NCBI GenBank assembly: GCA_041650805.1
Contig: JBAZKM010000006.1
Span: 17,837-81,836, forward strand
From: Candidatus Omnitrophota bacterium
GTDB lineage: Bacteria > Omnitrophota > Gorgyraeia > 2-01-FULL-45-10
Length of the DNA stretch: 64,000 bases
Direction of reading: 5' to 3'
Below the pieces are notes generated by a model that was not told where the DNA came from, did not search any database, and worked only from the letters and a program-made list of their open reading frames with translations. Positions 8,645 through 33,584 of this stretch are shown here, in pieces. The position numbers and the translations under genes are program-made. The first letter of the stretch is position 1; each line of letters begins with the position of its first letter.

Positions 8645-10465
8645 TCAAAACTCGAAACGGGCGCCGGAGCGAAACTCGCGGCCTGGCATGGGGATGTCGG
8701 ACTGCTCGGAGTAAGTGACATCGAAGAGGTTTGCTACGCTCAGGAATGCTTTCAGGGAGAGACCCTTCTTACGGAATATCTCCCTCTCGAACTTGGTATC
8801 GACGACTATATAGCCGGAATCGCCGGTACGCTTCTTGTAATTGAGCGTCCAATAGTTTTTAAAATCCAAGAGTGTATACTCAAGGCCGCAGGTGATATGC
8901 TGTTTCAGGTAATCGAGGGCATATTTTGAAAGATAGTCATGTTTCCTGCAGGAATCGACCGTTGTGTAGTCAAAGTATATCCTGTCGACCGGGATCGATC
9001 TGATGATCGCTTTGGGCATTATCTCGAGAGAGAACTCAACCCCGTTCGTTTCTATAGAACCGATATTGGAGACACGCCACGGCTCTTTCGATGAAGCGCG
9101 GGTCCAATCGATAGTATCTTGTGAGTCACGGTGGAAGAACGTGGCCGAACATTTTATTGCACCGTTTACATAGTCAGCACCGGCTTCGTATGACCATGCG
9201 TGTTCCGGGGTCAGGTCGGCACTGCCGATATTCGCCGCATCGCTGTAATAGAGGTCCGTGAATGTAGGGACCCTGTATGCCTTTCCGACGGAAGACCTCA
9301 CGCTGAGATCTTCGAAAAAACGGTAGATCACGCTCATGTACGGAGAGCACTCCCAGCCAAAATCAGAAAACCGGTCCTCCCTCATCCCTGCGATAAATGA
9401 TAGGTCGTCGGCGAGATGCGGCGAGGCCTCTATGTATATACCGTCTTTGGTCCGCCTGTGCCGCTGGATATTGGTAGAATCTATCGTGTCCCGCGAAAGC
9501 TCGAATCCGTAGGAGACGTCGCAGAAATCGTTTTCAAGGACGAACCCGAGCTCTCCGCCGTAATTATATGTGGTATGGTAATTCGTCTGCCATCCGGGCC
9601 TGTTCCTGTCGAGCGCAAATTTATCCTTGTGCCTTCTTAAGAAGAGTTTAGGCGCTATCTTTAAACTGCCGGTTTCGATAGAATAATCTGCCTTAAAGAA
9701 CCTCGTGTCGGTATCTTCCTCCTCGTTAGGATATAAGTTCGAATAGAAGCTGTCGGCGCCGAAGTCCTTTTTGGTATACCCGAAGAAGAAGCCGGCCGTC
9801 CCCTCGCCTATTTTCATGACGGCGCTGTCCGACAATGACAGTATATTATATTCTGTCTCCGGCATATACCCCGTCGAACGGCTCTCCTCGAACGAAAAAC
9901 GGTTGGCGATGGTCCCGAGATCCTGAGAGACGGAGACCACTCCGGAAAAATAGTCGAAGGACCCGCCTTGTGCCTCAGCCATGATCTTTCTTCCCCGGGG
10001 CTTTTTGGTTATTATATTTATGACGCCGCCGAAGGCGTTCGGGCCGTATAGACCCGACGCAGGGCCTTTCAGTATCTCTATCCTCTCTATATCTGCCCCG
10101 GTCACGGGGAGGTCCATATTGTAGTGGCCGGTCTGCGGGTCGTTAACCTTTATGCCGTCTATCATGACCGTATTCTGCTCAAACGTCGTGCCGCGTATAT
10201 TGACATCTGACTGGACACCGCCGACACCGCGCCTGCGCAGATCGATCCCGCCCAGGTCGCCTAACATATCCGGGATCGAGCTGTAGACGCAGCTGCCCAT
10301 AGCATCTTCATCCAGGATAGTGACGGAGCGGCCTGAACCGGTCGGCGAATATTCGAGACGGGAGGGGGTGACGACGATCTTTTCGAGAGTGCGCGCTTCT
10401 TCGGCACGCGCGGCAACTCCGGAGCATAACGAAACCAGTAATATAAGTGCGCCAATACGCCGCAT
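8645..10465 (-). CDS. TonB-dependent outer-membrane receptor
   Basis: N-terminal signal peptide. Plug domain (TPSRLEY, VDIRG, GTTFEQNTVMIDGIKVNDP). Beta-barrel with C-terminal aromatic residue (…RFEF). Confidence 0.85.
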   Translation of the reverse strand: MRRIGALILLVSLCSGVAARAEEARTLEKIVVTPSRLEYSPTGSGRSVTILDEDAMGSCVYSSIPDMLGDLGGIDLRRRGVGGVQSDVNIRGTTFEQNTVMIDGIKVNDPQTGHYNMDLPVTGADIERIEILKGPASGLYGPNAFGGVINIITKKPRGRKIMAEAQGGSFDYFSGVVSVSQDLGTIANRFSFEESRSTGYMPETEYNILSLSDSAVMKIGEGTAGFFFGYTKKDFGADSFYSNLYPNEEEDTDTRFFKADYSIETGSLKIAPKLFLRRHKDKFALDRNRPGWQTNYHTTYNYGGELGFVLENDFCDVSYGFELSRDTIDSTNIQRHRRTKDGIYIEASPHLADDLSFIAGMREDRFSDFGWECSPYMSVIYRFFEDLSVRSSVGKAYRVPTFTDLYYSDAANIGSADLTPEHAWSYEAGADYVNGAIKCSATFFHRDSQDTIDWTRASSKEPWRVSNIGSIETNGVEFSLEIMPKAIIRSIPVDRIYFDYTTVDSCRKHDYLSKYALDYLKQHITCGLEYTLLDFKNYWTLNYKKRTGDSGYIVVDTKFEREIFRKKGLSLKAFLSVANLFDVTYSEQSDIPMPGREFRSGARFEF

Positions 10466-10585
10466 CTCCGCATTTTAGCTCAAGAGCTGTCAATTGTCAA
10501 CCTATAATATACATATAAGTTTACAATGACAATAAAAGTGGTCAGGCACCTTTTTAGTTAGGGAGGAAAAAGGTAGCCGAGTTTC

Positions 10586-10636
10586 TGTTGACTTAACACC
10601 ATTATATGATATCATAATTGCTACTTTGCTAAAATT
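10586..10636 (+). promoter_or_regulatory. Candidate sigma70 promoter and RBS for the giant gene
   Basis: TTGACT, 17-nt spacer, then TATGATATCATAAT extended -10 in the AT-rich divergent intergenic region. Confidence 0.3.
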
Positions 10637-13600
10637 ATGAACTACATAATGACCAGCAGGATATATTTCCGGGCAATTGCTATCCTTATAGCATCATCGA
10701 TGCTCTTACAGGACGCTGCCTTTGCGCTCTCTCCCGCGTCCAGGTTTAAACCGATAGCGTCTGCCGGAGAAGAGGCGGCCCTTCGAGGATCATTCAGGGA
10801 AGGCGCCTCAACCGCGATAATTTTGACTACGATCGCCCACCACCTAAAACTCGGCGTATCCCAGCACACCCTTATCCCCGAACTGAAGAAGATCATATCC
10901 GCATCGGACCTTGCGGCGATAAAGGCGAAAGACCCTGTCCTTGCAGGCTGCGAGATCGATGAGCTTTCTTACGATGGCCCAAATAAGATCTACTCTCTTC
11001 CGATATACCGTGACGGAATAAAGTCCTTGCAATATAGATTCTACCTTGCCGAGAAGCCGCTGGAGAAGCGCGACAGCCGTATCCTCGCCGCGAGCGGCGA
11101 AGGGGAGCTTAGCGTTTATATGACGATCGAGCCGGCCGGAGCTGCGAGCCCCGGGCCACAAGCTGCTACGGAAGAAGACGACCTGGCAGATCTCAAAACA
11201 TGGCTTAAGGGAAGATCCGGCTTAGAGCTTGCGGTTGGATTATTGAAGATAGAGTCGGGAGGATTTACGGAAGATGAGCGCGTCCGCGCTATAGTGGACG
11301 GTATATACGAAGCCGGCGCGTGGCCGGAAGAGGCATTCCCGGGGCCCGGGAGAGAATTGACGGCGGAATATCTGCCCTTAATGGAAGAGAACGAGTCATT
11401 CGCTTCAAATATCCCGGCGATCCTGAATGGCGAAGAGAATTATTCCGTCCCCCTGCATCATTTTATCCCTGAAGGGAAATTGGGAAAGGTCCTGAAGAGG
11501 ATAACAAATGCCATGCGCATGACACCGCGCCACCTCTTCATCCCGCGCCCTATGCAGTTATTGGCTTATAAAGACAATGCGCAGCCTATAGGATATTCCC
11601 AGACGATCTCACAGCCGTCGCTTGTGGCGATGATCCTGGCGTTCCTCGATATAAAAGAAGACGAAAGGGTCCTTGAGGTAGGCGCCGGGAGCGGTTGGCT
11701 CTCTGCAGTGATGGCCCGCCTTGCCCGCGATGTGAAAGCGGTCGAGATAATACCTCAGCTTACCGCGCGCGCAAGGAGGACGATAAAAGCACTGGGCTTA
11801 AAAAATGTAGAGATCATGCAGGCCGGCGGGACGCTGGGCTATCCTCCCGGGGGCCCGTATGATGTCATAGTCGTTTCGGCCGGCGCGGGAAGCGAAGATG
11901 CGCCCGAGGTCCTGGCGGACCAGCTGGCCGTGAACGGCCGTATGATAATCCCCGTTTACAATAAGGAGATGTCGGCTGAACGCAATGAGACGATCTACGA
12001 CCTGACATTATTCACCAGGAAGAAGGCCCGGCTCTGGGGCGATCCGAGGTTGGTCAAGATCGGAGTTGTGCAGTACAGCTACTTCGTTCCGCTGATAGAG
12101 AAGACGCCCGGCGAGCCGAAGCCCCGCTCCCTCGGCGCGGCCGCGGCGGACGGGCCGGAGTTTGGGGATAAGATACCGGTCGTAGAGTCCCCGGTCGACG
12201 GTCCAAGGTCCACAAAATCGTCAGGTCCCGAGGGTGAGTTGCCCAAGCCCCCGCCCTTTATGGAAGAGACGATCTCCGCGCTGGAGAGGGCAGGCGGTAA
12301 ATGGACGAAGGCGGCCGATGATCTTGGCATAAGCAGACAGGACTTTTCTAAAAGGATAAAGGCGATAGGAAGGGCCGCTTACGAATTGGGCGACGAGGCC
12401 ACATTTGCCCGGCTCGATAGGGCGCACATATCATTGCCGTCCTTTACGGAAGAGACGATCTCCGCGCTGGAGAGGACGGGCGGTAACATGACCAGGGCCG
12501 CCGGGATCCTTAGCGTATCCGAGTCAGACGTCTCATACAGGGTAAAGACGATAAGAAATACCGCTTCCAGATCGGGCGACAAAGCCACGCTTGCCCGCCT
12601 CAATAGGGCGCTCGTATCATTACCGTCCTATACGGAAGATACGATAGCCGCACTGGATAGGGCAGACGGTAACCAGACGAAGGCGGCCGGTTACCTTGGT
12701 ATAAGAAGAGAGGCCTTTTTTAAAAGGATGGTAACGATCAGAAAGGCCGCTTCCAAATTGGGCGACGAGGCCACACTTGCCCGCCTCAATAAGGCGCGCA
12801 TATCATTACCGCCCTTTACGGAAGAGACGATCTCCGCGCTGGAGACGGCAGGCGGTAGTCAGGCAAAGGCCGTCGGCACCCTTGGCGTATCCGATTCAGA
12901 CGTATCCTACAGGACAAAGGTTATAAGAAAGGCCGCTTCCGAGAAAGGCGATGAGGCCACGCTTGCCCGCCTCAATAGGGCGCTCGTATCATTACCGTCC
13001 TATACGGAAGATACGATAGCTGCGCTGGAAAAGACAGACGGTAACATGACCAGGGCCGCCGCCGTTCTCGACATATCCAAGGTGGCCCTCACATACAGGG
13101 TCGGAAAGATAATAAAGGCCGCTTCCGGGAAAGGCGATGAGGCCACGCTTGCGCGGCTTAATGGGGTGCTCAAAAAGCGTAAAGGACCCGGGCGGCGTCC
13201 CCGCTCCCTCGGCGCGGCCGCGGCGGACGGACCGGAGTCCGGAGGCACGGCCATGGGCCGGATGCTTGCGCCGACAACATTCAGCTATCCCGGCGAGGCC
13301 GCCGGAGTTTATATTGTGGTGACAGAGGAAGCCGATAAGGCGGCCAACGAAGGGCTTCACTACATGAAAGTCGAAATTGACTATAACGATTATGCGAGGC
13401 CTGTCATTCTTAAGATGGAAGAACCGGCAGGGGTGAGCGGTAAGAATGTCCGTGATCTGATAGTTCAATTCATCGAACAAAAAGGCACCGAGTTTGAGGA
13501 TGGGCAGTTGAGCCACGATTATTTTAAGTCAGGGCTTCGGGAAGATATCGCGAATATTCTAAAGAGAAATTCCGCCGCAACAGGCATACAACGCATTATC

Positions 13601-16600
13601 GTGAGCGGCAACTACGAGGTGTATGAAGAGATCGTGCTGGAGGATGACCGGTCGAGCGAGGAAGAGAGGAAGGCCATTGCCGGGAGGATGGAGAGAGAGA
13701 TGCTTGGCACCTATTTCCTAATCTTCCACAAACACCTTAAGGATGAGGCGGGGTCGGATATCGTAAAACATGAGGTCTATGAGTTCAGGCATAGGGACCG
13801 CCAGATCGTGGAGAGGGCTATCGTATGGCGGGACAGGTCGGTTCCCGCGGAAGAAGATCTGGCCGCGATGATAAAAGATGACAGGACGAATTTCCTGGAT
13901 AATCTGGCGGCCCTTAAAAATGCTCCCATTACTACGCCGGAGAAGCTGCGCGAGAGGCCAGGCAGGATTCCGCCCGAAGCGTCCGGCCAGATAGGAATAC
14001 CGGGGCTATTGGACAGGATACGGAATTCGGTCTCTGCGGAAGATATCGAGATGCGGATACTGGAGGCAAGGTCGGAGATAGAGCTCGGGAAGATGACCGT
14101 AGAGGAATTTGCGGAAGCGCTCCTGGAGTTTGCAAATAGCGATGGCAGAGTTACGGAAAAGGCATATAGAGTTCTCGGCTCATTGCCATTACCGGATGAA
14201 ATGAAGACAAGATTTTTCTTCGTGAATTCGCTTTTGGAATGGGCGAGACAGACCGAAGAGGGCAAGGAGGCATTCCCGGTCCAACCGGTATGGAATGCGG
14301 ATGACACTATGCTCGGCAAACCCGATGAAAGAGGTGAGGTCGTTTCTCTGACCCCGGAAGTGGCGGTACTGCTTGACAGGGCGATGCATTATCCGGTCGA
14401 CATCTTTATGGAGGCGGTCCGAAGGCGTACAAATATCAGGCGGATGTCATCAGAATGGCAGTTTATCCGGAAGCTGCGGTGCGTAAGCGGATTTATCGTG
14501 TCGGAAGAGGCCGCCCAGGAATTCACTGCGCTGACAGATGACGGCAGGAGAAAGATCATGGGCGTATATGAGGAATATTCGAAAGCGGCGCTGCCGTTAC
14601 AATACGAGGCAGACCTTATCTCATATGATAACCTAACGCCGGCAGGTCATGACAGGTATGGTGATCTATTTGACCAATCTTTCTTCGGAAAGGCATCGGG
14701 TTCTCTGTTCTATTTTGCTGCCCGGGATTGTGCTGCTATGCGGGACGAGATCAAGGCGATCGATATGAGAATAGGCTATGAATCTTTCAATGCATCACGC
14801 ATGGCCGCCGCTATGGCCAATATAAAAAAGGGTCGTGCCGATATCGCGATAGGGCAATACAGGGCGGTTCTTGAGAAAGTGCCGTATTTTGCGGCAAAAG
14901 TGGCCAGGGATCTCGCGGATCTTATCATCGCGGAGGGAGAACGGCAGCTCGGGCCGGATGTGACCGTAGCCGGTGTGGTACGTCTGGTTGCGCTTGCCCT
15001 GCAGAAAGAAGGCGTCACCGATGAGTTCGACAGGTTACGGGCTCAGAGCCCTCAGGAGAAATGGCTCGCCGGCCTCGAAGACGAAGTCAGGAGGACGGGA
15101 GGACGCGTTAAGCTTACGATACCCCTGCGCACGCCAAAAGGGACGATAGATTCGCTGCTGGTGCATGACAGAGTATTCGCCCCGGACCATACGAGCGAAT
15201 ATCTGATAGCTGCTCTCGATGAGAATAACTTTATCAGAGAGGGGATGGAGGTCGGCGTGATCGGCGCCGGTTCCGGATATGATACGATCTTTGCGGCGAA
15301 CGACGTCGGTCCTAACGGGCACGTCGAGGCGACAGACAGAGGTGAGGGTTGGGCGGTCGCAAATGCCAGGGCCAATGTGAAGGATAGCGGTTTAAGTGAA
15401 CGGGCCAATATCTCCGTAAGAGACGGGTTGAATGGCCTGGGCAGATTTGACGTCATCATATCCAATTGTCCCGAAGTGTTGGAAGACGAAGTACCGATAG
15501 ATTCCATTATGAGCGCCGGTTTCATCTACCGCGCCGGTTTTGAAAGGATAATGAGATCTATGCGAGAGCACCTGAAGCCGGGCGGATTCGCCCTGGTCAG
15601 GCTCTTCAAGTCCGGTTATTATGACGAATTCTTTGATGAGGCAGGGTTTGATATAGAAGAGATAACGGTCCCGCGGCTCGATGAAAAGGCGGAAGAGGAG
15701 TATAGAGGGCAGGTCGTCTATAAACTTACGCCGAGGCCCACGGAGAGTGATGCGATAGCCGCATTCAATGCCTTCGATTCAGGCTTGGCGGCCACGGCGG
15801 ACAATTGCGAGATAGAGCGCGACTATACAGGCCATATCAATGTGACGTGGCGCCTCACGGATAAGGCGGCCGGCAGGAGATTCATCGTACAGAAACTGAA
15901 TACCATATTCGATATAGACGCCATAGGCCACAACCTGACGGTCCTGGAAGATACCCAGGCCAGGGCCGGCGAATTCCTGCCGGATCACTGGCAAAAGGTG
16001 AGTTACCTTGACAGAAAAGACGGAGGAGGCAAGATCTATTACGACGGGGCTGGCATGGCATGGCGCGTCATGGACTTCATACCGGGTGATATACTTATAT
16101 ATAGCTCATTCAGCGAGGTGCCCGAAGCAGACAGACAGTACGCAGCCCGTTCCCTGGGCGAGGCGATAGCCATATTCGGCAGGATGGTCGCGGACGTCCC
16201 GCAGGATTCGTGGCGAAACCCGCTTCCCAACTTTCACAATGCCGGATATCACCGCGGTTATCTTGACGCCATTCTGCGGGGAGAGGAGACGGTATTAAGT
16301 TTAAGCCACGATACCTCCAGAAAAGTAAGATTACAGGGCGCCTTCATGGCGAGATATAAAGACCGTGTAGACGCGCTCATGGCCAAGGTGCGGGAGAGAG
16401 ACGGACTTGCGGCATCCCTGAACGACCTCGGTAAGGCGCTGACCCATGGCGACACCAAGATAAATAATGCCGTCTTCGCCCGTGACGCGCAGGGCCGGAT
16501 ACGCTGTATATCACTGATAGACCTCGATACCATACAGGTGGGCGGCCTCCTGGACGATCTCGGTGACGCCTTACGTTCGGCCGGCAACCCGGCCGGCGAA

Positions 16601-17629
16601 GCGCCCGAGGATATAAATAGCGTGACCATAGATATGGAGGTAGTGAATGACATAATAGACGGATATCTGGATAAGACAGGAGAATTTTACGGCGCGGATA
16701 GGGCCGCAGAATTGCGGGGAGAGGCCGTAACGGCGTTCAAACAATTCCTCTATGTCCAATGTATCAGGTTCTTCGCGGATTCTCTCGTTGGTAACAGATA
16801 CTTTAAACCGGGGCCCGGCCAATCGGAAGATATTAACCTCTACAGGGCGGAGGTGCAGATGCGCGCCCTCGAGGAACTCGAGAAGATAGAGGGACGAAGG
16901 ATGAGGGATGAAAAACGACCGGAGGAAGCCCGGGAAGCGACGATGCTGACCGATAGGATACGGCTAATGGCGCATGCGGCGGAGGAGAAGAACGAGACTA
17001 TAGTGATAGGCCTTGAATCGAATGAGTGGATCCCTCCGCTCCAGCGGAAGCAAAACCTCATCCAGCCGCTCGTGAACGAGTTCACCAACCGCCTGGAGGC
17101 GGAATTGAAGAAGGCCGGTCATGATAACGTCAAGATAGTCGGCGGCGCAGGAGATGACCTGGCCCAGAACGTCCTGGCCAAGATCGCAGAATATAATGTG
17201 AAACCGCATAACGCTTTTGTAATAGCAAGCGAGGTGACCGTAAACAATAAAGATCTTGAGAAATTTAAAGAATTGATCGGCAGGGCGTTCATCGCAGGCA
17301 TGGATACTTCAAAACTGCAGGCGGAGTCGGGGGAGGAGCTTAATTACATACGGCTCTGTGAGATGGTCCGCATGGCGATGGAGCTTGCCGAATTCGTATC
17401 TAAGGCAAAAGAGAGAAGAGAGAGAGGTGAGCTGGCCCAGGAAGAGCTTGCCGGGGTAGTCAGCGAAATGCTCCGGGCGTTCAGAAAGAACCATCCCCAT
17501 ATAGGTATCGACGATAAAGAGATGCTCGAAAATGGCATGGTACTCTTCATGCCGGATATAGAGCCCAAAGATCCCGGTGAACTGAAAATTATCTACGACT
17601 CGCAGCAGACGGCGCTCATCGCCGCGTAA
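10637..17629 (+). CDS. Giant (2,330 aa) multidomain protein. Domain order: signal peptide; PCMT-like methyltransferase; 5 tandem Fis-type HTH-like repeats; class I SAM methyltransferase (HemK-like); APH/protein-kinase-like phosphotransferase domain; unassigned C-terminal region.
   Basis: Hydrophobic N-terminus. PCMT motifs (ISQPSLVA, LEVGAGSGWLSAVMA, DVIVVSAG) at about nt 11505-11960. Five 60-aa repeats (TEETISALERxGGNxTxAAxxLGxSxxDxSYRxKxIRKAAS) at about 12244-13150. MTase motif I/IV (VIGAGSGYD; ISNCP) at about 15180-15620. Kinase-like HGDTKINNAVF ... LIDLD at about 16440-16530. Confidence 0.75.
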   Translation: MNYIMTSRIYFRAIAILIASSMLLQDAAFALSPASRFKPIASAGEEAALRGSFREGASTAIILTTIAHHLKLGVSQHTLIPELKKIISASDLAAIKAKDPVLAGCEIDELSYDGPNKIYSLPIYRDGIKSLQYRFYLAEKPLEKRDSRILAASGEGELSVYMTIEPAGAASPGPQAATEEDDLADLKTWLKGRSGLELAVGLLKIESGGFTEDERVRAIVDGIYEAGAWPEEAFPGPGRELTAEYLPLMEENESFASNIPAILNGEENYSVPLHHFIPEGKLGKVLKRITNAMRMTPRHLFIPRPMQLLAYKDNAQPIGYSQTISQPSLVAMILAFLDIKEDERVLEVGAGSGWLSAVMARLARDVKAVEIIPQLTARARRTIKALGLKNVEIMQAGGTLGYPPGGPYDVIVVSAGAGSEDAPEVLADQLAVNGRMIIPVYNKEMSAERNETIYDLTLFTRKKARLWGDPRLVKIGVVQYSYFVPLIEKTPGEPKPRSLGAAAADGPEFGDKIPVVESPVDGPRSTKSSGPEGELPKPPPFMEETISALERAGGKWTKAADDLGISRQDFSKRIKAIGRAAYELGDEATFARLDRAHISLPSFTEETISALERTGGNMTRAAGILSVSESDVSYRVKTIRNTASRSGDKATLARLNRALVSLPSYTEDTIAALDRADGNQTKAAGYLGIRREAFFKRMVTIRKAASKLGDEATLARLNKARISLPPFTEETISALETAGGSQAKAVGTLGVSDSDVSYRTKVIRKAASEKGDEATLARLNRALVSLPSYTEDTIAALEKTDGNMTRAAAVLDISKVALTYRVGKIIKAASGKGDEATLARLNGVLKKRKGPGRRPRSLGAAAADGPESGGTAMGRMLAPTTFSYPGEAAGVYIVVTEEADKAANEGLHYMKVEIDYNDYARPVILKMEEPAGVSGKNVRDLIVQFIEQKGTEFEDGQLSHDYFKSGLREDIANILKRNSAATGIQRIIVSGNYEVYEEIVLEDDRSSEEERKAIAGRMEREMLGTYFLIFHKHLKDEAGSDIVKHEVYEFRHRDRQIVERAIVWRDRSVPAEEDLAAMIKDDRTNFLDNLAALKNAPITTPEKLRERPGRIPPEASGQIGIPGLLDRIRNSVSAEDIEMRILEARSEIELGKMTVEEFAEALLEFANSDGRVTEKAYRVLGSLPLPDEMKTRFFFVNSLLEWARQTEEGKEAFPVQPVWNADDTMLGKPDERGEVVSLTPEVAVLLDRAMHYPVDIFMEAVRRRTNIRRMSSEWQFIRKLRCVSGFIVSEEAAQEFTALTDDGRRKIMGVYEEYSKAALPLQYEADLISYDNLTPAGHDRYGDLFDQSFFGKASGSLFYFAARDCAAMRDEIKAIDMRIGYESFNASRMAAAMANIKKGRADIAIGQYRAVLEKVPYFAAKVARDLADLIIAEGERQLGPDVTVAGVVRLVALALQKEGVTDEFDRLRAQSPQEKWLAGLEDEVRRTGGRVKLTIPLRTPKGTIDSLLVHDRVFAPDHTSEYLIAALDENNFIREGMEVGVIGAGSGYDTIFAANDVGPNGHVEATDRGEGWAVANARANVKDSGLSERANISVRDGLNGLGRFDVIISNCPEVLEDEVPIDSIMSAGFIYRAGFERIMRSMREHLKPGGFALVRLFKSGYYDEFFDEAGFDIEEITVPRLDEKAEEEYRGQVVYKLTPRPTESDAIAAFNAFDSGLAATADNCEIERDYTGHINVTWRLTDKAAGRRFIVQKLNTIFDIDAIGHNLTVLEDTQARAGEFLPDHWQKVSYLDRKDGGGKIYYDGAGMAWRVMDFIPGDILIYSSFSEVPEADRQYAARSLGEAIAIFGRMVADVPQDSWRNPLPNFHNAGYHRGYLDAILRGEETVLSLSHDTSRKVRLQGAFMARYKDRVDALMAKVRERDGLAASLNDLGKALTHGDTKINNAVFARDAQGRIRCISLIDLDTIQVGGLLDDLGDALRSAGNPAGEAPEDINSVTIDMEVVNDIIDGYLDKTGEFYGADRAAELRGEAVTAFKQFLYVQCIRFFADSLVGNRYFKPGPGQSEDINLYRAEVQMRALEELEKIEGRRMRDEKRPEEAREATMLTDRIRLMAHAAEEKNETIVIGLESNEWIPPLQRKQNLIQPLVNEFTNRLEAELKKAGHDNVKIVGGAGDDLAQNVLAKIAEYNVKPHNAFVIASEVTVNNKDLEKFKELIGRAFIAGMDTSKLQAESGEELNYIRLCEMVRMAMELAEFVSKAKERRERGELAQEELAGVVSEMLRAFRKNHPHIGIDDKEMLENGMVLFMPDIEPKDPGELKIIYDSQQTALIAA
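12244..13150 (+). repeat. Five in-frame tandem 180-bp repeats inside the giant gene. They are bracketed by 40-nt near-identical direct repeats at 12121-12161 and 13199-13239.
   Basis: Stretches of about 65 nt are identical between repeat units (e.g. 12583-12650 vs 12958-13023). The flanking sequence ccccgctccctcggcgcggccgcggcggacgg(g/a)ccggagt occurs on both sides. Confidence 0.85.
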
Positions 17630-17731: not shown

Positions 17732-18322
17732 ATGGGACATTCGCACACATTGGCTCTGGGCAGGGAAGTGATCTATAGTCGTCCAGCGAGCGCAGCGTTG
17801 GGGGTCGCATTCTTCATACTTGCCATGGTGCTTGGGGCTTATGTTCGGATACCGTTACCCGGGACGCCTGTCCCGATAACCCTGCAGACATTCTTTGTCG
17901 TCCTTTCAGGCGCCGTGCTCGGAAAGCGGCTGGGCCTCTACAGTCAGGCCGGATACCTCTTGCTCGGGGTTGTCGGCCTCCCGGTCTTCCAGGGGTACTC
18001 TTCCGGCATAAGCCATTTTATGGGTTCCACTGGCGGATATCTCATAGGGTTCGTCTTCGCGTCGTATATCGCCGGCCGTCTGACAGAGACAGCAGGACGA
18101 CCCGCGATATGGCGGATCATACTCGGATTCATTCTGGGAAATGCGGTTATCTATACATGCGGCATCGCATGGCTCATCTATCTATATCGCATACCATTAG
18201 AAAGCGCTTTCCTTATCGGTCTCCTGCCTTTCATCCCGGGCGAAGCGTTGAAGATATTGTGCGCGGCTTCCGTGTTTTCCGGGATATCATCCCGCACAAG
18301 CCGCATCTTCTCTGTAAAATAA
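17732..18322 (+). CDS. bioY: Biotin transporter BioY (ECF-type S component)
   Basis: Motif YVRIPLPGTPVPITLQTFFVVLSGAVLG, characteristic of BioY. Six TM helices. Confidence 0.8.
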   Translation: MGHSHTLALGREVIYSRPASAALGVAFFILAMVLGAYVRIPLPGTPVPITLQTFFVVLSGAVLGKRLGLYSQAGYLLLGVVGLPVFQGYSSGISHFMGSTGGYLIGFVFASYIAGRLTETAGRPAIWRIILGFILGNAVIYTCGIAWLIYLYRIPLESAFLIGLLPFIPGEALKILCAASVFSGISSRTSRIFSVK

Positions 18323-18333
18323 AAGTCACTGTT

Positions 18334-19992
18334 ATGAAACGACTATTAGAGCATCCGGCTACGTCCATATTCCTTCTTCTCATACTCTCAGGGTATCTCT
18401 TCTTCTTCCACCTGGGCGGCATGGCCCTATCCGACCCGGACGAGACGTTCTATGCACAGACCGCGAAGGAGATGCTGGAGAGGGGCGAATGGCTCACCCC
18501 GTATCTCTTCGGCAAACCGCAATTCGAAAAACCTATCCTCTTATACTGGTTCGTCGAGTCCTCTTATAAGCTATTCGGCGTGAACGAATTTGCCGCGCGC
18601 TTCCCTTCGGCCGTCTTCGGTTTTTTGGGCCTCGTTGCTGTATATCTCCTCGGCATGCTCTTATTCAATAAACGCGTCGGTATCCTCTCGGCCCTCATAC
18701 TTGCGACGAATGTCGAATATGTGATGCTCTCCCGGGCCTGTGTGACGGACATGATCCTGGCTACACTGATAGCGTACGGATTTCTCTTCTTCCTATACGG
18801 CCGCATGCGGGGGAAAGGCTATTTTTATATCTTATCGGCATCCTTCTTCGCCCTTGCAACGCTTACGAAAGGGCCTATAGGTGTCCTGTTGCCGGGCGTT
18901 GTCCTTCTGGTCTACCTGATACTCTTCAGGGACCTGAAGTCGGTCCTTAGGATACCCGTCATACCATGCCTTGCGGTATTCTTCGCGATAGCCCTCCCGT
19001 GGTATCTTGTCGAATACCGGCTCCACGGCATGAAGTTCGTAGACGCCTTCTTCGGGTTCCATAACGTGACGAGGTTCCTCGAATCCGAGCACGCGATAGG
19101 GTCCCAGTTCTACTATAACATCCCCATAATACTGGGCGGATTCTTCCCGTGGAGCGTCTTTCTGCCTTTCGGCTTCTGGTATATATTCACGAAGGCCTTT
19201 ACGAGATCCTCGGAATACAGGGGTCCCATCCTCTTCGTTCTTTCATGGTTTTTCGTGATATTCATCTTCTTCTCCATATCGAGCACTAAGCTGCCCACTT
19301 ACGTATTCCCGTTATTCCCGGCGCTTGCCCTGATAGTAGCCGTCGTCTGGGATAAATTCCTGAAGGACGGAGATCCGGGAGGTATATGGAAGGGCATGAG
19401 GATATCGTACTATATCCTCGATATCGCGGTGCTGGCGGGCGTGATAACTCTCTACATCCTCATCAAGATGAAGTTCCCCATGGTCCTGGGCGGGGCGGTC
19501 GTGTCGGCATCCTTCCTTGTCCTCGGGTTCGGCATGTCGCTCATCGCATTCAAGGCCAGGAATTTTATATTCGCTTTCTTCTTTATCGTGTTTTCGGTCG
19601 TGCTCTTCATATACCCCCTGAATAAGCTCGTTCTCGACGATATCGAGCGATATGAGACGAGCAAAGAGGTCGCGTTGAAACTCGCCTCGCTTATGAAGCC
19701 CCTGGAGAAGGTCGCCTGCGAGAGCAACTACCTTTCGGGGGTAGCCTTCTATACCGGCAAATTTCCCGACGATATAGACAAGCATGACAGGTTCGTAAAG
19801 TTCCTGGATGTCGAGGAAAGGGTATGGTGTGTGCTGAAAGAGAAGAACCATATACAGCTATATACGCTCGATACCAAGCCCTATTGCATGAGGCCTACAT
19901 ACATGGTCTACAAGATCGGCAAGCGGTGTATCATAACTAACAAGGTACCGGACGACGGCGTCTACCTGGTGAAGAGGGAGAGGAAGGAATGA
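18334..19992 (+). CDS. ArnT/PMT-like (GT39/GT83 family) membrane glycosyltransferase
   Basis: N-terminal DE motif (SDPDETFYAQTAKEM). Polytopic membrane protein. ATG 18334 has upstream context and is preferred over the long in-frame extension from 18109. Confidence 0.7.
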   Translation: MKRLLEHPATSIFLLLILSGYLFFFHLGGMALSDPDETFYAQTAKEMLERGEWLTPYLFGKPQFEKPILLYWFVESSYKLFGVNEFAARFPSAVFGFLGLVAVYLLGMLLFNKRVGILSALILATNVEYVMLSRACVTDMILATLIAYGFLFFLYGRMRGKGYFYILSASFFALATLTKGPIGVLLPGVVLLVYLILFRDLKSVLRIPVIPCLAVFFAIALPWYLVEYRLHGMKFVDAFFGFHNVTRFLESEHAIGSQFYYNIPIILGGFFPWSVFLPFGFWYIFTKAFTRSSEYRGPILFVLSWFFVIFIFFSISSTKLPTYVFPLFPALALIVAVVWDKFLKDGDPGGIWKGMRISYYILDIAVLAGVITLYILIKMKFPMVLGGAVVSASFLVLGFGMSLIAFKARNFIFAFFFIVFSVVLFIYPLNKLVLDDIERYETSKEVALKLASLMKPLEKVACESNYLSGVAFYTGKFPDDIDKHDRFVKFLDVEERVWCVLKEKNHIQLYTLDTKPYCMRPTYMVYKIGKRCIITNKVPDDGVYLVKRERKE

Positions 19993-20684
19993 GGAGCGTA
20001 TCGTTCGTCTTTCCCATGTTCAACGAGGCCGACAATATCAGGACGACGATAAAGCGGGCGTCGGACCTTGCCGGCAAGATGCGCGTCGATTACGAGATCA
20101 TAGTCGTCGATGATGCCTCCACCGATGGAAGCGCCGATATGGTGAGCGCCATTGCCGGGGCCGACCGGCACATAAGATTGATACGGCTTAAAAAGAATAC
20201 GAAGTTCGGCGGGGCTCTCAGGGAGGGGCTGAAGAACGCCTCGAAGGATGCCGTCCTGTACACGGATTCCGATCTCCCGGCGCGGGAAGAGGATATGAAG
20301 AAGGCCGTGGAGCTCCTGGATGAAGCGGATATAGTAACGGCGTATAGCCTGGTACTCAAGGACGCAAGCTTGAAACGCATCATCATGTCCAAGGTATACA
20401 ACTTCCTCGTCCGCGTTCTGTTCCATCTCGATATACGGGATATCAATTCAGGCCTCAAGGTATATAAGAGAGAGGCGATCTCGGGCCTCGACCTCAGGTC
20501 CAAGAGCCCGTTCATAGACGTTGAGATATTCGCCGAAGCGATCAAGAAAAATTACAGGATAAGGCAATTCGGCCTCATCTTCGAACTCCGTACCGGCGGC
20601 AGGTCCACCATATCGCGTCCCGCCATCGTGGCGCGCACGTTCTGGGATATGCTGGCATATAAATTCTCCTCCAAAAGGTCATGA
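19989..20684 (+). CDS. Family 2 glycosyltransferase (polyprenyl-phosphate sugar synthase, DPM1/ArnC-like)
   Basis: GT-A motifs FPMFNEADNI and IIVVDDASTDGS. Overlaps the previous stop. Confidence 0.75.
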   Translation: MRSVSFVFPMFNEADNIRTTIKRASDLAGKMRVDYEIIVVDDASTDGSADMVSAIAGADRHIRLIRLKKNTKFGGALREGLKNASKDAVLYTDSDLPAREEDMKKAVELLDEADIVTAYSLVLKDASLKRIIMSKVYNFLVRVLFHLDIRDINSGLKVYKREAISGLDLRSKSPFIDVEIFAEAIKKNYRIRQFGLIFELRTGGRSTISRPAIVARTFWDMLAYKFSSKRS

Positions 20685-21535
20685 AACGACTTATAGTCAC
20701 AGCCGACGATTTCGGGCTCACCAGGAGCATAAACGAAGGTATCGTAAAGGCCTGCCGGGAGGGCATAGTCACCAATATAAACGTCCTACCCTCGGGCGGC
20801 GCTTTCGGCGATGCCGTGCGGTTGTTGCAGGAGCTGAAGCCGAAGGATATAGGGGCCCATCTCTCTTTGACCGAGACGGATGCCGTCTCCGACCCCGGCA
20901 AGATACCCGCCCTTGTCACAAGGGGCAGCAGGTTCCATAAAGACCACAACCTATTTTTTATGAAGTTCAAGCTGGGGATGATACACCGCCACGATATATG
21001 CACCGAGCTTGAGCGGCAGCTCCGTATGGCTGAGAGCATAGGCATACCGATCTCGAACCTCAGCAGTCACGAGCATATCCACATGATGCCGAAACTTTTC
21101 GATATCTTTGTCGCCCTGGCGAAGGAGCACGGCATACCGGCGCTGAGGATGCCCGCCGACGATACATATGCGGCCGGGTTATCACCCGCGAAGATAGCCA
21201 AACGTATGATCGTCGCCTGTTTCGCCCCGGGCATGGAGAGACGGCTCAGGGCCGGAGGCATCCGTTACGCGGAGCACTTTGCAGGATTTCTCGATTCGGG
21301 CCGTCTGCGCGAAGAGGCGCTCCTCGGCATCCTGGCGTCCCTTAAAGACGGGACGACCGAGCTTGTTACGCATCCCGGTTTCATAGGCCCGGAAGTCATA
21401 TCTCGGTATAGGTTCCATCTCAACAGCGAATATGAACTTTATGCGCTCACCGGTAAACGCGCAAAGGATGCCTTAAAGACGGAAGGGATAAAGCTGAGCA
21501 CGTATGGCGAATTCGTTTCAGGGACCGGCGCCTAA
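20681..21535 (+). CDS. YdjC/ChbG-family carbohydrate deacetylase (HpnK-like)
   Basis: N-terminal ITADDFGLTRSINEGIV; His-rich motifs characteristic of the YdjC family. Confidence 0.7.
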   Translation: MKRLIVTADDFGLTRSINEGIVKACREGIVTNINVLPSGGAFGDAVRLLQELKPKDIGAHLSLTETDAVSDPGKIPALVTRGSRFHKDHNLFFMKFKLGMIHRHDICTELERQLRMAESIGIPISNLSSHEHIHMMPKLFDIFVALAKEHGIPALRMPADDTYAAGLSPAKIAKRMIVACFAPGMERRLRAGGIRYAEHFAGFLDSGRLREEALLGILASLKDGTTELVTHPGFIGPEVISRYRFHLNSEYELYALTGKRAKDALKTEGIKLSTYGEFVSGTGA

Positions 21536-24075: not shown

Positions 24076-24487
24076 GGGGGTGACAGGCATCGACCTAGGT
24101 AAATACGGTAAGGGTGGCATGTAGAGGTTGCTAGGAGGCCTCTTTAAACACCTGGCAAAAATCAAATGCTGACAACGTAAAAGTGCCAGCTACGGTAAAC
24201 GAGCTTCTGGCTACCATGCAAGTGGTACCGGGGCCCGTTCTACCACAAGCGTTACCTTTATAAGGTAACCCGTTAACCGGCCTCTTCCTGCGGGGCCGGA
24301 TTAGCGTCGCTAGCAGGATGGTCTCTCCGGTTTATCCTTCGGCCGGTGAGATGAGATCGTCAAAGGATACCTTCGCGAAATTCCTCCTATTGAAGTTCGG
24401 GAAGGGAACTCAAAGATTAGGATAAACATGTAGATGCCTTTATTGTGGTATCTGGGGACGCGAGTTCGAATCTCGCCACCTCCACCA
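24076..24487 (+). ncRNA. ssrA: tmRNA (SsrA), one-piece
   Basis: Starts GGGGGUGACAGG...CGAC. Ends with a tRNA-like T-arm/acceptor: GGACGCGAGUUCGAAUCUCGCCACCUCCACCA. Lies immediately downstream of smpB. Confidence 0.85.
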
Positions 24488-33505: not shown

Positions 33506-33584
33506 GGTGGGCGTAGCTCAGCTTGGATAGAGCACCTGGCTGTGGCCCAGGGTGTCGCCGGTTCAAATCCGGTCGCCTACCCCA
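33506..33584 (+). tRNA. tRNA-His (anticodon GTG) with G-1 and discriminator C, CCA encoded
   Basis: G-1 followed by GTGGGCG paired with CGCCTAC (one G-U). Anticodon loop CUGUGGC. T-loop GGTTCAAATCC. Confidence 0.8.

What the first reader, a model, noticed from the sequence alone, without database searches (positions are those of the whole stretch)
10637..17629. 2,330-aa giant protein combining two methyltransferase domains, DNA-binding-type HTH repeats and a kinase-like domain
One ORF with a hydrophobic N-terminus encodes, in order:
- a protein-L-isoaspartate O-methyltransferase-like domain;
- five tandem units resembling the Fis-type HTH of sigma-54 activators (TEETISALERTGGNMTRAA...LGxS...YRxK);
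- a second class-I SAM methyltransferase with an ISNCP motif (NPPY-like);
- an APH/protein-kinase-like domain (HGDTKINN ... IDLD).

I know of no characterised protein with this architecture. PCMT-like plus kinase-like domains echo RiPP/lanthipeptide tailoring logic (phosphorylation, then isoAsp/O-methylation). The HTH-like repeats suggest nucleic-acid or repeat-scaffold binding. Giant genes like this often mark lineage-specific surface or effector systems.
Basis: partly seen in the sequence, partly recalled or inferred. Interest (0 to 1): 0.8.

Follow-up and report, generated by a model that had tools for sequence, protein, structure and literature searches.

The report
Exported mosaic multi-enzyme protein of Omnitrophota
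The 2,330-residue gene is real, and it is a small, one-of-a-kind example of the patchwork multi-enzyme proteins already known from Omnitrophota bacteria; its "kinase" is a sugar kinase, not a protein kinase, and its overall function remains unknown.

Summary
One uninterrupted ORF (10637-17629, +) encodes 2,330 aa with:
- a signal-peptide-like N-terminus;
- a complete PCMT domain;
- five 62-aa Fis-type HTH repeats;
- a generic class-I methyltransferase (MT2);
- an APH-fold domain.

- The APH-fold domain aligns end to end with N-acetylhexosamine 1-kinase (NahK), an anomeric sugar kinase. It is not a protein kinase.
- The PCMT domain scores as canonical Pcm. It does not score as a RiPP-type O-methyltransferase, and no RiPP genes lie nearby.
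- "ISNCP" is not an NPPY motif.

The gene comes from a Candidatus Omnitrophota MAG (NCBI MFA5146774.1, a singleton cluster). No full-length homologue was found, but its modules recur in other long mosaic proteins:
- PCMT in P0002;
- an all-alpha domain of no known fold ("X") in about 10 proteins, including a 5,128-aa archaeovorin-like one;
- the MT2-NahK pair, 54% identical, in a second Omnitrophota protein;
- the C-terminal domain in P0003.

Most relatives with intact N-termini also start with Sec-type leaders.

My best reading is a Sec-exported member of the known Omnitrophota class of mosaic multi-enzyme proteins. What it acts on, and where it gets ATP and SAM, is unresolved. Interest is moderate.

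The parts
10588..10615 (+). Sigma-70-like promoter match (TTGACT-16-TATCAT, with TG) about 20 nt upstream of the ATG. This implies a very short leader.
   Evidence: sequence
10637..17629 (+). The whole ORF: 2,330 codons plus stop.
   Evidence: identical to NCBI MFA5146774.1, Candidatus Omnitrophota MAG
10637..10726 (+). aa 1-30, a Sec-type signal-peptide-like leader. It has a basic n-region (R8, R12), a 12-residue h-region (AIAILIASSMLL) and a c-region QDAAFA|LS.
   Evidence: Sequence. It is the only hydrophobic segment. Similar leaders start seven relatives. No signal-peptide predictor was available.
10727..11428 (+). aa 31-264, an N-terminal region with no detectable relatives.
   Evidence: no hits
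11429..12115 (+). aa about 265-493, a complete protein-L-isoaspartate O-methyltransferase (PCMT) domain. Motifs present: TISQP, LEVGAGSG, DVIVVSAGA, NGRMIIPV and FVPL.
   Evidence: 40% identical to the embedded PCMT of P0002
12122..12161 (+). First copy of a 40-nt direct repeat, encoding PRSLGAAAADGPE.
12254..13183 (+). aa 540-849, five tandem 62-aa repeats. Each is a Fis-type HTH (HTH_8) plus one extra helix.
13199..13238 (+). Second copy of the 40-nt direct repeat (39/40 identical). It lies 1,077 nt, or 359 codons, downstream of the first, in frame.
13274..13951 (+). aa 880-1105, dark module M1. aa 983-1103 resemble the 398-aa signal-peptide-bearing protein P0008.
13955..14224 (+). aa 1107-1196, short module M2 (PPEASGQ...EIE-GK-T-EEFAE). 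It is shared with the long proteins P0012 and P0013.
14201..14956 (+). aa 1189-1440, all-alpha 'domain X', ending in a TPR-like helix pair. It recurs in about 10 mostly long or signal-peptide-bearing proteins and has no solved structural relative.
14999..15736 (+). aa 1455-1700, generic class-I SAM methyltransferase (MT2). GAGSGYD is the SAM-binding motif. The NCPEV motif is conserved in P0013.
15782..16885 (+). aa 1716-2083, NahK-like anomeric sugar kinase domain (APH fold). Motifs present: GHINVT, HGDTKINN and IDLDTI.
   Evidence: The junction with MT2 is 68.6% identical to P0013.
16925..17626 (+). aa 2097-2330, C-terminal domain of unknown fold. The predicted secondary structure of its first half alternates strands and helices. 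It resembles the C-terminus of P0003.
   Evidence: pLDDT 53; z 9.2; BLASTP E 7e-5

Best explanation
This is a genuine single gene of a Candidatus Omnitrophota bacterium. It encodes a small member of that phylum's known class of long mosaic 'multi-enzyme' proteins (archaeovorin-like).

**Shown**
- A Sec-type leader is followed by at least nine independent modules on one chain.
- The modules in order are: an N-terminal region with no detectable relatives, canonical PCMT, a 5x HTH_8 array, dark modules M1 and M2, the all-alpha domain X, a fused MT2-NahK-like pair, and a C-terminal domain.
- The individual modules are shuffled among other long proteins of the same kind.

**Inferred mechanism**
- The chain is exported through Sec, and the modules act separately rather than as an assembly line.
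- PCMT O-methylates isoaspartyl or aspartyl residues of proteins.
- The MT2-NahK pair is one functional unit. It phosphorylates an N-acetylhexosamine-like sugar at C1 and methylates the same or a linked substrate.
- The HTH array binds nucleic acid, or else serves as a helical spacer.
- Domain X and the C-terminal domain are scaffold or sorting modules.

**Open problem**
- SAM and ATP are not available in the periplasm. The enzymes would be active only in a compartment that supplies them, most plausibly the cytoplasm or lysate of a host or prey cell. This step is inference from the published biology of Omnitrophota, not from this sequence.
For: **One real ORF**
- The ORF is continuous, with uniform GC and GC3 that match the neighbouring genes.
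- A promoter-like site lies upstream.
- The source is Omnitrophota.

**Domain calls**
- Pfam, NCBIfam and PDB searches agree.
- The NahK alignment runs end to end. The catalytic loop is kept (HGDTKINN against NahK's HNDTKLNN), as are IDLDTI and GHINxT.

**Module sharing**
- PCMT is embedded in P0002, which also carries GNAT and HEAT domains.
- Domain X occurs in P0003 (HATPase_c), P0005, P0010 (a methyltransferase) and P0011 (GT2). P0005 is 5,128 aa and carries radical SAM, HATPase_c, TPR, Lysine_decarbox and PrmA.
- MT2-NahK is 54% identical over 446 aa in Omnitrophota protein P0013. The domain junction is the best-conserved stretch.
- The C-terminal domain matches P0003.

**Export**
- The leader has a textbook n/h/c layout with AFA|L, and there is no other hydrophobic segment.
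- Seven of nine relatives with intact N-termini start with a Sec-type or lipobox leader. Among them are three short proteins (330, 369 and 398 aa) in which domain X or the M1-like region was the only recognisable part.
- Cys is depleted: 0.34% against about 1.2% in neighbouring genes.

**Literature**
- Long Omnitrophota proteins tile methyltransferases, kinases, GNAT and sugar enzymes behind signal peptides or TM helices, and most are sequence singletons (bioRxiv 10.1101/2023.11.21.568195; 10.64898/2026.06.07.730766).
- The phylum is thought to be largely predatory or parasitic (PMC10066038).
Against: - At 2,330 aa the protein is far below the 10-30 kaa used to define the published class.
- It has no glycoside hydrolase, peptidase, dockerin or TM-bundle content. 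It is not next to secretion or pilus genes.
- Export rests on sequence rules and comparison only. No predictor or experiment was available.
- SAM- and ATP-dependent enzymes and an HTH array are typical cytoplasmic content, which argues for cytoplasmic retention.
- HTH repeats 2 and 4 carry acidic residues at the start of the recognition helix (SESD, SDSD), so DNA binding is uncertain.
- No delivery system or target is identified.
- Homologue sampling is thin. The word-index searches failed to return even the query itself.
Confidence: 0.6

Rival explanations
1. A cytoplasmic or inner-membrane-tethered regulator-enzyme. The N-terminal segment would be an uncleaved anchor or would not function. 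The bulk of the protein would stay in the cytoplasm. There the HTH array would bind the organism's own DNA, and the PCMT and MT2-NahK modules would use cellular SAM and ATP, for example to link amino-sugar salvage to the adjacent envelope-modification genes.
For: - All recognisable domains are normally cytoplasmic and need cofactors.
- NCBI names it an HTH domain-containing protein.
- Genes for ArnT-like, ArnC-like GT2 and YdjC/HpnK-like deacetylase proteins follow on the same strand. No terminator-like site separates them from the ORF.
- Such a pathway consumes UDP-GlcNAc, which a GlcNAc 1-kinase could feed.
- In the 2026 preprint, 46% of long Omnitrophota proteins are TM-only with cytoplasmic content.
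Against: - The h-region is only 12 residues and is followed by an AxA site. Positive charges lie on its N-terminal side. Together these predict translocation of the C-terminal bulk.
- Relatives carrying domain X or M1 have cleavable-looking leaders or a lipobox.
- Cys is depleted.
- No sigma-54 or other regulatory partner domain is present.
Confidence: 0.22
2. An assembly or annotation artefact. Either several genes were fused by a mis-join or lost stops, or the HTH cassette was spliced in wrongly at the 40-nt repeat.
For: - A 40-nt near-perfect direct repeat brackets the HTH cassette exactly in frame.
- The protein is a singleton seen on one contig.
- No relative was found in genome or metagenome contig scans.
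Against: - There are 2,330 codons without a stop.
- Composition is uniform across all modules and matches the flanks.
- Independent contigs carry PCMT and MT2-NahK inside long ORFs.
- A 40-nt repeat is shorter than the final k-mers assemblers typically use.
- Even if the cassette were misplaced, the rest of the mosaic would stand.
Confidence: 0.07
3. A RiPP or lanthipeptide-style tailoring enzyme. This is the first reader's idea: a kinase phosphorylates a peptide, and a PCMT-like enzyme methylates Asp or isoAsp.
For: PCMT homologues do act in FxLD and graspetide pathways. Weak hits to those models exist.
Against: - Scores fall far below those models' cut-offs (100 vs 320; 79 vs 380), while the canonical pimt cut-off is passed.
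- The kinase is NahK-type.
- No precursor, LanC/LanKC, ATP-grasp or transporter genes lie within about 7 kb either side.
Confidence: 0.03

Closest known systems
Omnitrophota long mosaic proteins: the 'Archaeovorin-type' of West-Roberts et al. 2023 (bioRxiv 10.1101/2023.11.21.568195) and the 'multi-enzyme metabolic cluster' class of the 2026 preprint (10.64898/2026.06.07.730766)
   Same: - Same phylum.
- An N-terminal signal followed by tiling of unrelated enzyme domains (methyltransferases, kinases) separated by stretches with no known domain.
- Sequence-unique, as about 80% of that class are.
- Shares domain X and an MT2-like domain with a 5,128-aa protein that carries the typical set of radical SAM, HATPase_c, TPR and Lysine_decarbox domains.
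   Different: - Five to sixty times shorter than the class definition.
- A single hydrophobic segment.
- No hydrolase, peptidase, dockerin or SecA content.
- Not flanked by secretion or pilus genes.
- Carries PCMT, a 5x HTH_8 array and a NahK-like domain. The text searches of the two preprints found no mention of these.
N-acetylhexosamine 1-kinase NahK/LnpB of Bifidobacterium longum (PDB 4wh1, 4ocj)
   Same: - Alignment over the whole 360-aa enzyme, E 7e-18.
- The catalytic loop H-x-D-T-K-x-N-N, the metal-binding IDLDTI, GHINxT and the C-terminal RF-AD-L-G-YF helix are all conserved.
   Different: - Low overall identity.
- Fused to a methyltransferase and embedded in a 2,330-aa exported-looking protein.
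- No GNB/LNB pathway genes nearby.
- Sugar specificity unknown.
Protein-L-isoaspartate O-methyltransferase Pcm (TIGR00080; PDB 1jg1)
   Same: - Passes the curated equivalog cut-off.
- All SAM-binding and substrate motifs are present.
   Different: - Embedded in a giant protein behind a signal peptide, not a free-standing enzyme.
- Carries an insertion before the C-terminal FVPL strand.
- Scores just below the PRK00312 cut-off (185.4 vs 188).
Fis/NtrC C-terminal HTH (Pfam HTH_8)
   Same: Clear profile match to the E-x-I-x-AL-x3-GGN-x-T-x-AA-x-LG-x-S-x5-YR-x-K pattern.
   Different: - Five tandem copies with an extra helix each, instead of one C-terminal copy.
- No AAA+ sigma-54 activator or Fis N-terminal domain.
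- Acidic residues in the recognition helices of units 2 and 4.

Membership tests
Pcm / PIMT (TIGR00080, PF01135) | Score above the curated family cut-off | tested here: met
   TIGR00080 scores 169.5 against 159.05. PF01135 scores 174.8 against 20.3. PRK00312 narrowly misses at 185.4 against 188.
Pcm / PIMT (TIGR00080, PF01135) | SAM-binding motif I, the TISQP pre-motif, motifs II and III, and the C-terminal FVPL | tested here: met
   QTISQPSLVA, LEVGAGSGW, YDVIVVSAGA, NGRMIIPV and YFVPL are all in the translation. The motif definitions come from my own knowledge.
Pcm / PIMT (TIGR00080, PF01135) | IsoAsp-peptide methyl-esterification activity | not testable with these tools
   Needs an enzyme assay.
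RiPP-associated PCMT-like O-methyltransferases (FxLD TIGR04364; graspetide TIGR04188) | Score above the curated cut-off | tested here: not met
   100.4 against 320, and 79.2 against 380.
RiPP-associated PCMT-like O-methyltransferases (FxLD TIGR04364; graspetide TIGR04188) | Adjacent precursor peptide plus LanKC or ATP-grasp maturase genes | tested here: not met
   The neighbours are a TonB-dependent receptor, pabB-like and aminotransferase IV genes, BioY, an ArnT-like gene, GT2, YdjC and TPR. Short precursor ORFs were not looked for.
NahK (N-acetylhexosamine 1-kinase, APH fold) | Full-length homology to the solved enzyme, with catalytic Asp, Asn and metal-binding Asp conserved | tested here: met
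   Query aa 1725-2083 match chain residues 24-342 of 367, E 7e-18. HGDTKINN and IDLDTI align with HNDTKLNN and IDLDTI.
NahK (N-acetylhexosamine 1-kinase, APH fold) | GlcNAc/GalNAc anomeric phosphorylation; GNB/LNB operon context | tested here: not met
   There is no lnpA, galT or galE context. Activity is not testable here. I therefore call the domain 'NahK-like' and not an orthologue.
Hanks-type or RiPP protein kinases | Match to protein-kinase profiles | tested here: not met
   No Pkinase-type family appears among the Pfam hits at E<=1. Only APH and EcKL do.
HemK/PrmC-type N-methyltransferases | (D/N)PP(Y/F/W) motif IV and the family score | tested here: not met
   The motif reads N-C-P-E. 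TIGR03534 scores 46.7 and 29.6 bits against 199.
Fis/NtrC-type DNA-binding regulators | HTH_8 profile match | tested here: met
   91.1 bits against 22. Five units are seen by alignment.
Fis/NtrC-type DNA-binding regulators | Associated sigma-54 AAA+ activator or Fis dimerisation domain; DNA binding | tested here: not met
   No Sigma54_activat or AAA hit. DNA binding is not testable here.
Omnitrophota long mosaic (archaeovorin-like / multi-enzyme) proteins | Omnitrophota origin, an N-terminal signal or TM segment, and many unrelated enzyme domains on one chain | tested here: met
   The class is described.
Omnitrophota long mosaic (archaeovorin-like / multi-enzyme) proteins | Length of at least 10,000 aa (2026 preprint) or at least 30,000 aa (2023 preprint) | tested here: not met
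   2,330 aa.
Omnitrophota long mosaic (archaeovorin-like / multi-enzyme) proteins | Sequence modules shared with members of the class | tested here: met
   Domain X and an MT2-like domain are shared with P0005 (5,128 aa). MT2-NahK is shared with Omnitrophota protein P0013. P0005 itself is below 10 kaa, so this link is by domain content.
Omnitrophota long mosaic (archaeovorin-like / multi-enzyme) proteins | Glycoside hydrolase or peptidase content and flanking secretion or pilus genes | tested here: not met

The most novel reading that the evidence does not exclude
The protein is a secreted effector of a predatory or parasitic Omnitrophota cell, and it belongs to a wider, undescribed toolkit. 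In that toolkit a Sec leader, shuffled enzyme 'cargo' modules and shared dark modules (domain X, the C-terminal domain, possibly an -ALIAA tail acting as a sorting tag) are recombined as in-frame cassettes. The 40-nt repeats around the HTH array would be a footprint of such a swap. The cofactor-dependent enzymes (PCMT, MT2-NahK) and the five-HTH array would work inside the host or prey cytoplasm, on its proteins, amino sugars and DNA.
Probability: 0.15. Interest if true: 0.75.

Novelty: new member of a known kind. Interest (0 to 1): 0.42.

Why it matters
- This protein is small enough to clone and express. The published Omnitrophota giants of 10-147 kaa are not. It could therefore serve as a tractable model for two open questions about the class: are cytoplasm-type enzymes really exported, and what do they act on?
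- It shows that some dark regions of such proteins are discrete, reusable modules. Domain X gives a confident model with no solved relative. The C-terminal domain is a second such module.
- It shows that a methyltransferase and a NahK-like sugar kinase form a conserved fused unit. That gives a concrete biochemical hypothesis to test.
- The HTH cassette bracketed by repeats hints at how these mosaics are assembled.

Tried and rejected
**Searches that found nothing or failed**
- Word-index homologue searches with the full protein, with aa 1500-2330 and with aa 1-290. The last two did not even return the query, so their silence is not evidence of absence.
- Back-translated pattern scans of GTDB species genomes and JGI metagenomes, once with the protein and once with the MT2-NahK alignment. 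Only the P0013 contig was found.
- Pfam and NCBIfam on the unannotated segments: nothing.
- Exact look-up of the protein's own contig: not on record.
- AFDB Foldseek library: unavailable.
- Rfam scan: no riboswitch or other RNA element near the gene.
- Literature searches for NahK-methyltransferase fusions and for PCMT in Omnitrophota: nothing.

**Structure work with no informative result**

**Ideas tested and dropped**
- A shared C-terminal domain in P0005, P0011 and P0012, which I thought I saw by eye. Shuffle-calibrated Smith-Waterman and a two-sequence profile did not support it. Only P0003 is significant.
- A general 'PxGFG/PRSLG' linker motif across relatives. It is not general.
- RiPP logic and a protein-kinase reading. 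Both are rejected, as set out in the rival explanations.
Full report
**1.

ORF 10637-17629 (+) is an uninterrupted 2,330-codon frame with an ATG start.

Pfam-A finds four kinds of domain:
- PCMT at aa 287-444 (E 2.6e-51);
- HTH_8 (E 3.4e-26);
- a class-I methyltransferase at aa about 1517-1658 (Methyltransf_31 at 47.2 bits, MTS at 43.5 bits);
- APH at aa 1803-1990 (31.8 bits against a 23.2 cut-off).

Tandem Repeats Finder reports a 186-nt period with a 372-nt super-period over 12251-13172. This corresponds to five 62-aa units at aa 540-849, which align without gaps.

The only hydrophobic segment in the protein is aa 13-31. GC and GC3 are even across all modules and resemble the flanking genes, so composition gives no sign of a chimera. 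A sigma-70-like site (TTGACT-16-TATCAT) sits about 20 nt upstream of the ATG. No terminator-like site on the + strand separates the ORF from the next gene.

**2. What the recognisable domains are.**

- **PCMT.** The domain is canonical.
  - It passes the curated pimt equivalog cut-off (TIGR00080, 169.5 against 159.05).
  - It aligns with solved Pcm enzymes (E about 1e-30).
  - It keeps TISQP, LEVGAGSG, the motif II and III strings and the terminal FVPL.
  - The RiPP-linked PCMT-like models fail badly: FxLD at 100 against 320, graspetide at 79 against 380.
- **The 'kinase'.** It aligns over the entire length of Bifidobacterium longum N-acetylhexosamine 1-kinase (4wh1/4ocj, E 7e-18).
  - GHINxT is conserved.
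  - The catalytic loop is conserved (HGDTKINN against HNDTKLNN).
  - IDLDTI and the C-terminal RF-AD-L-G-YF helix are conserved.
  - It is therefore an anomeric sugar kinase of the NahK type, not a protein kinase. No protein-kinase profile matched.
- **The second methyltransferase (MT2).** It is a generic Rossmann-fold enzyme.
  - Its best specific models (PrmC, ArsM, PCMT) lie far below their cut-offs.
  - 'ISNCP' reads N-C-P-E, not (D/N)PP(Y/F).
- **The HTH units.** They fit the Fis/NtrC pattern well, but there is no AAA+ or Fis partner domain. Units 2 and 4 start their recognition helices with SESD and SDSD, so DNA binding is plausible but not assured. The comparison with Fis residues is from my own knowledge.

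**3. Source and relatives.**

The protein is NCBI MFA5146774.1, 'MAG: helix-turn-helix domain-containing protein [Candidatus Omnitrophota bacterium]'. It is a singleton cluster on one 169-kb contig. No full-length relative turned up in any search.

An exhaustive HMMER scan of 1.84 billion representative proteins with aa 880-1505 gave only 13 hits. Together with pairwise comparisons, these show that the protein is a mosaic of modules. Each module recurs separately in other, mostly long, proteins:

| Module | Recurs in | Evidence |
|---|---|---|
| PCMT plus about 65 preceding residues | P0002, 1,661 aa, with GNAT and HEAT domains; 40% identity | |
| M1, aa 983-1103 | P0008 | |
| M2, aa 1107-1196 | P0012 (GNAT) and P0013 | |
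| Domain X, aa 1189-1440 | about 10 proteins (listed below) | |
| MT2 alone | P0005, where it lies upstream of domain X, the reverse of the order here | |
| MT2 plus the NahK N-lobe | P0013; 54% identical over 446 aa up to the end of its contig | |
| C-terminal domain, aa 2097-2252 | the C-terminus of P0003 (BLASTP E 7e-5, shuffle z 9.2) | |

Proteins carrying domain X include:
- P0003 (2,057 aa, HATPase_c);
- P0005 (5,128 aa, with B12-binding, radical SAM, HATPase_c, TPR, Lysine_decarbox and PrmA);
- P0010 (a methyltransferase);
- P0011 (2,671 aa, GT2, 15 hydrophobic segments).

P0013 is NQT22533.1 from Candidatus Omnitrophota bin.93. It has multiple TM segments and a CheB methylesterase domain. 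In the MT2-NahK comparison with P0013, the inter-domain junction is the best-conserved stretch at 68.6%. This argues that MT2 and the kinase form one functional unit.

**4. The dark modules.**

- **C-terminal domain.** It could only be modelled from a single sequence (pLDDT 53). The secondary structure of its first half alternates strands and helices, and no usable fold match was obtained.
- **aa 31-264.** No relative was found in any search.

**5. Where the protein probably goes.**

The leader MNYIMTSRIYFR-AIAILIASSMLL-QDAAFA|LS has the layout of a Sec/SPase I signal peptide: basic n-region, a 12-residue h-region, and small residues at positions -3 and -1. I read this by eye against the standard rules, because no predictor was available.

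Comparison supports the reading. Of nine relatives with intact N-termini, seven begin with a similar leader:
- P0005: ...VNDISWA|Q
- P0007: ...GVALA|A
- P0008: ...GYA|L
- P0009: ...LHA|V
- P0010: ...LVLA|D
- P0011: IIRCIAIILAFTFILQDIVWA|N, which is strikingly like the query
- P0004: a lipobox, LVSC

The other two relatives have internal TM segments. Three of the leader-bearing proteins are short (330, 369 and 398 aa). In them, domain X or the M1-like region was the only recognisable part. These modules are therefore most likely extracytoplasmic.

The giant protein is also Cys-poor: 8 Cys, or 0.34%, against about 1.2% in neighbouring genes.

Against export, every recognisable enzyme here needs SAM or ATP.

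**6. Comparison with what is known.**

Three papers describe long Omnitrophota proteins:
- West-Roberts et al. 2023 (bioRxiv 10.1101/2023.11.21.568195);
- a 2026 preprint (10.64898/2026.06.07.730766);
- Seymour et al. 2023 (PMC10066038).

Together they report the following.
- The proteins tile methyltransferases, GNATs, HATPase_c, kinases and sugar enzymes between unannotated stretches.
- They usually sit behind signal peptides and/or TM helices.
- They are mostly sequence singletons.
- Their function is unresolved, with prey- or host-directed activity the favoured idea.

The present protein fits that description and shares modules with such proteins. It differs in being much shorter and in lacking hydrolase, peptidase or dockerin content. 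It is not flanked by secretion genes. My text searches of the two preprints found no mention of its particular cargo: PCMT, the 5x HTH_8 array and MT2-NahK.

I file it as a new, small member of a known kind and not as a new kind.

**7. Mechanism, with its status.**

- **Shown:** a real ORF; the domain identities; the shuffling of modules; the conserved MT2-NahK fusion.
- **Inferred with moderate support:** Sec export.
- **Inferred weakly:** the modules act independently.
  - PCMT would act on protein isoAsp or Asp.
  - MT2-NahK would act on an N-acetylhexosamine-like sugar.
  - The HTH array would act on nucleic acid, or else as a spacer.
  - The cofactor problem implies activity in a host or prey cytoplasm or lysate.
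- **Cytoplasmic rival (0.22).** This tethered reading draws some support from the same-strand downstream genes. They encode ArnT-like, ArnC-like GT2 and YdjC/HpnK-like deacetylase proteins. I infer an Arn/Lgm-like amino-sugar lipid-modification pathway that would consume UDP-GlcNAc.
- **Artefact (0.07) and RiPP (0.03)** readings are unlikely, for the reasons given in the rival explanations.

**8. An unexplained detail.**

A 40-nt direct repeat (39/40 identical) occurs at 12122-12161 and 13199-13238 and nowhere else in the window. Its copies lie exactly 359 codons apart and bracket the linker plus the whole HTH array. The HTH units themselves are only 74-83% alike at the DNA level.

Three explanations are possible: a recent in-frame cassette insertion, gene conversion, or an assembly join. 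Only the reads can decide. Recombination between the two copies would delete the HTH array cleanly.

**9. Verdict.**

The finding is real and accurately described, but over-interpreted. The architecture is unique, while the phenomenon is known. Interest is moderate (0.42). Its main value is as a tractable representative of an enigmatic protein class, together with the conserved MT2-NahK pair and the recurrent domain X of no known fold.

Noticed in passing
window 12122-12161 and 13199-13238: A 40-nt GC-rich direct repeat (39/40 identical, containing a NotI site) brackets the five-HTH cassette in frame, 1,077 nt apart. It is much better conserved than the HTH repeats it encloses. It could be the footprint of a cassette insertion, a substrate for in-frame deletion, or an assembly join.
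   Followed up: partly
window 33507-64000: GC drops from about 0.55 to about 0.38 immediately after tRNA-His (33507-33584). The low-GC block carries a large serine recombinase, an SNF2 helicase, two N6/N4 DNA methylases, a ResIII plus TnsA-like nuclease, a GMT-wHTH protein, a radical SAM protein, DUF6119 and a terminase-like gene. I read it as an integrated prophage or mobile island with defence-like cargo.
   Followed up: partly
window 17732-23330: Five genes follow on the same strand as the giant ORF: BioY, an ArnT-like GT-C (PMT_2), an ArnC-like GT2, a YdjC/HpnK-like deacetylase and a TPR protein. The last four have overlapping stops and starts. The set looks like an Arn/Lgm-type amino-sugar lipid or glycan modification operon. 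It could be linked to the NahK-like domain through UDP-GlcNAc supply.
   Followed up: partly
N-termini of relatives P0004, P0005, P0007-P0011 and window 10637-10726: Proteins sharing domain X or M1 nearly all begin with Sec-type leaders (one has a lipobox). The leader of P0011 (IIRCIAIILAFTFILQDIVWA) closely resembles that of the giant protein (IYFRAIAILIASSMLLQDAAFA). This suggests a family-specific export leader.
   Followed up: partly
window 17567-17626 (C-terminal tail) and C-termini of P0004, P0005, P0011: Four proteins end alike: ...TALIAA (the giant), ...EALIRA (P0011), ...AALIAQ (P0004) and ...SLLQSA (P0005). No other ORF of at least 150 aa in the window ends this way. It may be a C-terminal sorting tag. 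Pairwise and profile tests did not show a shared domain upstream of it, except in P0003.
   Followed up: partly
L002/L003 (JABMRN010000138.1), protein P0013: The only protein sharing the MT2-NahK pair also carries a CheB methylesterase domain (aa 590-788), an HExxH motif within hydrophobic segments that resembles a site-2 protease, and about 12 hydrophobic segments. The giant protein carries a protein carboxyl methyltransferase, and this relative carries a protein methylesterase. That may point to a shared protein carboxyl-methylation theme.
   Followed up: no
window 24076-24487: A tmRNA gene (Rfam 169 bits) whose predicted tag peptide is unusually long at 31 residues (ADNVKVPATVNELLATMQVVPGPVLPQALPL).
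   Followed up: no
window 8645-10465 (-) and 10466-10636: A BtuB-like TonB-dependent receptor is transcribed divergently from the giant gene. Promoter-like sites for both lie in the 170-nt spacer. No cobalamin riboswitch was detected at Rfam gathering thresholds.
   Followed up: yes
tool behaviour: The word-index homologue search did not return the query's own database entry when given aa 1500-2330 or aa 1-290. Negative results from that tool for this protein carry little weight.
   Followed up: no
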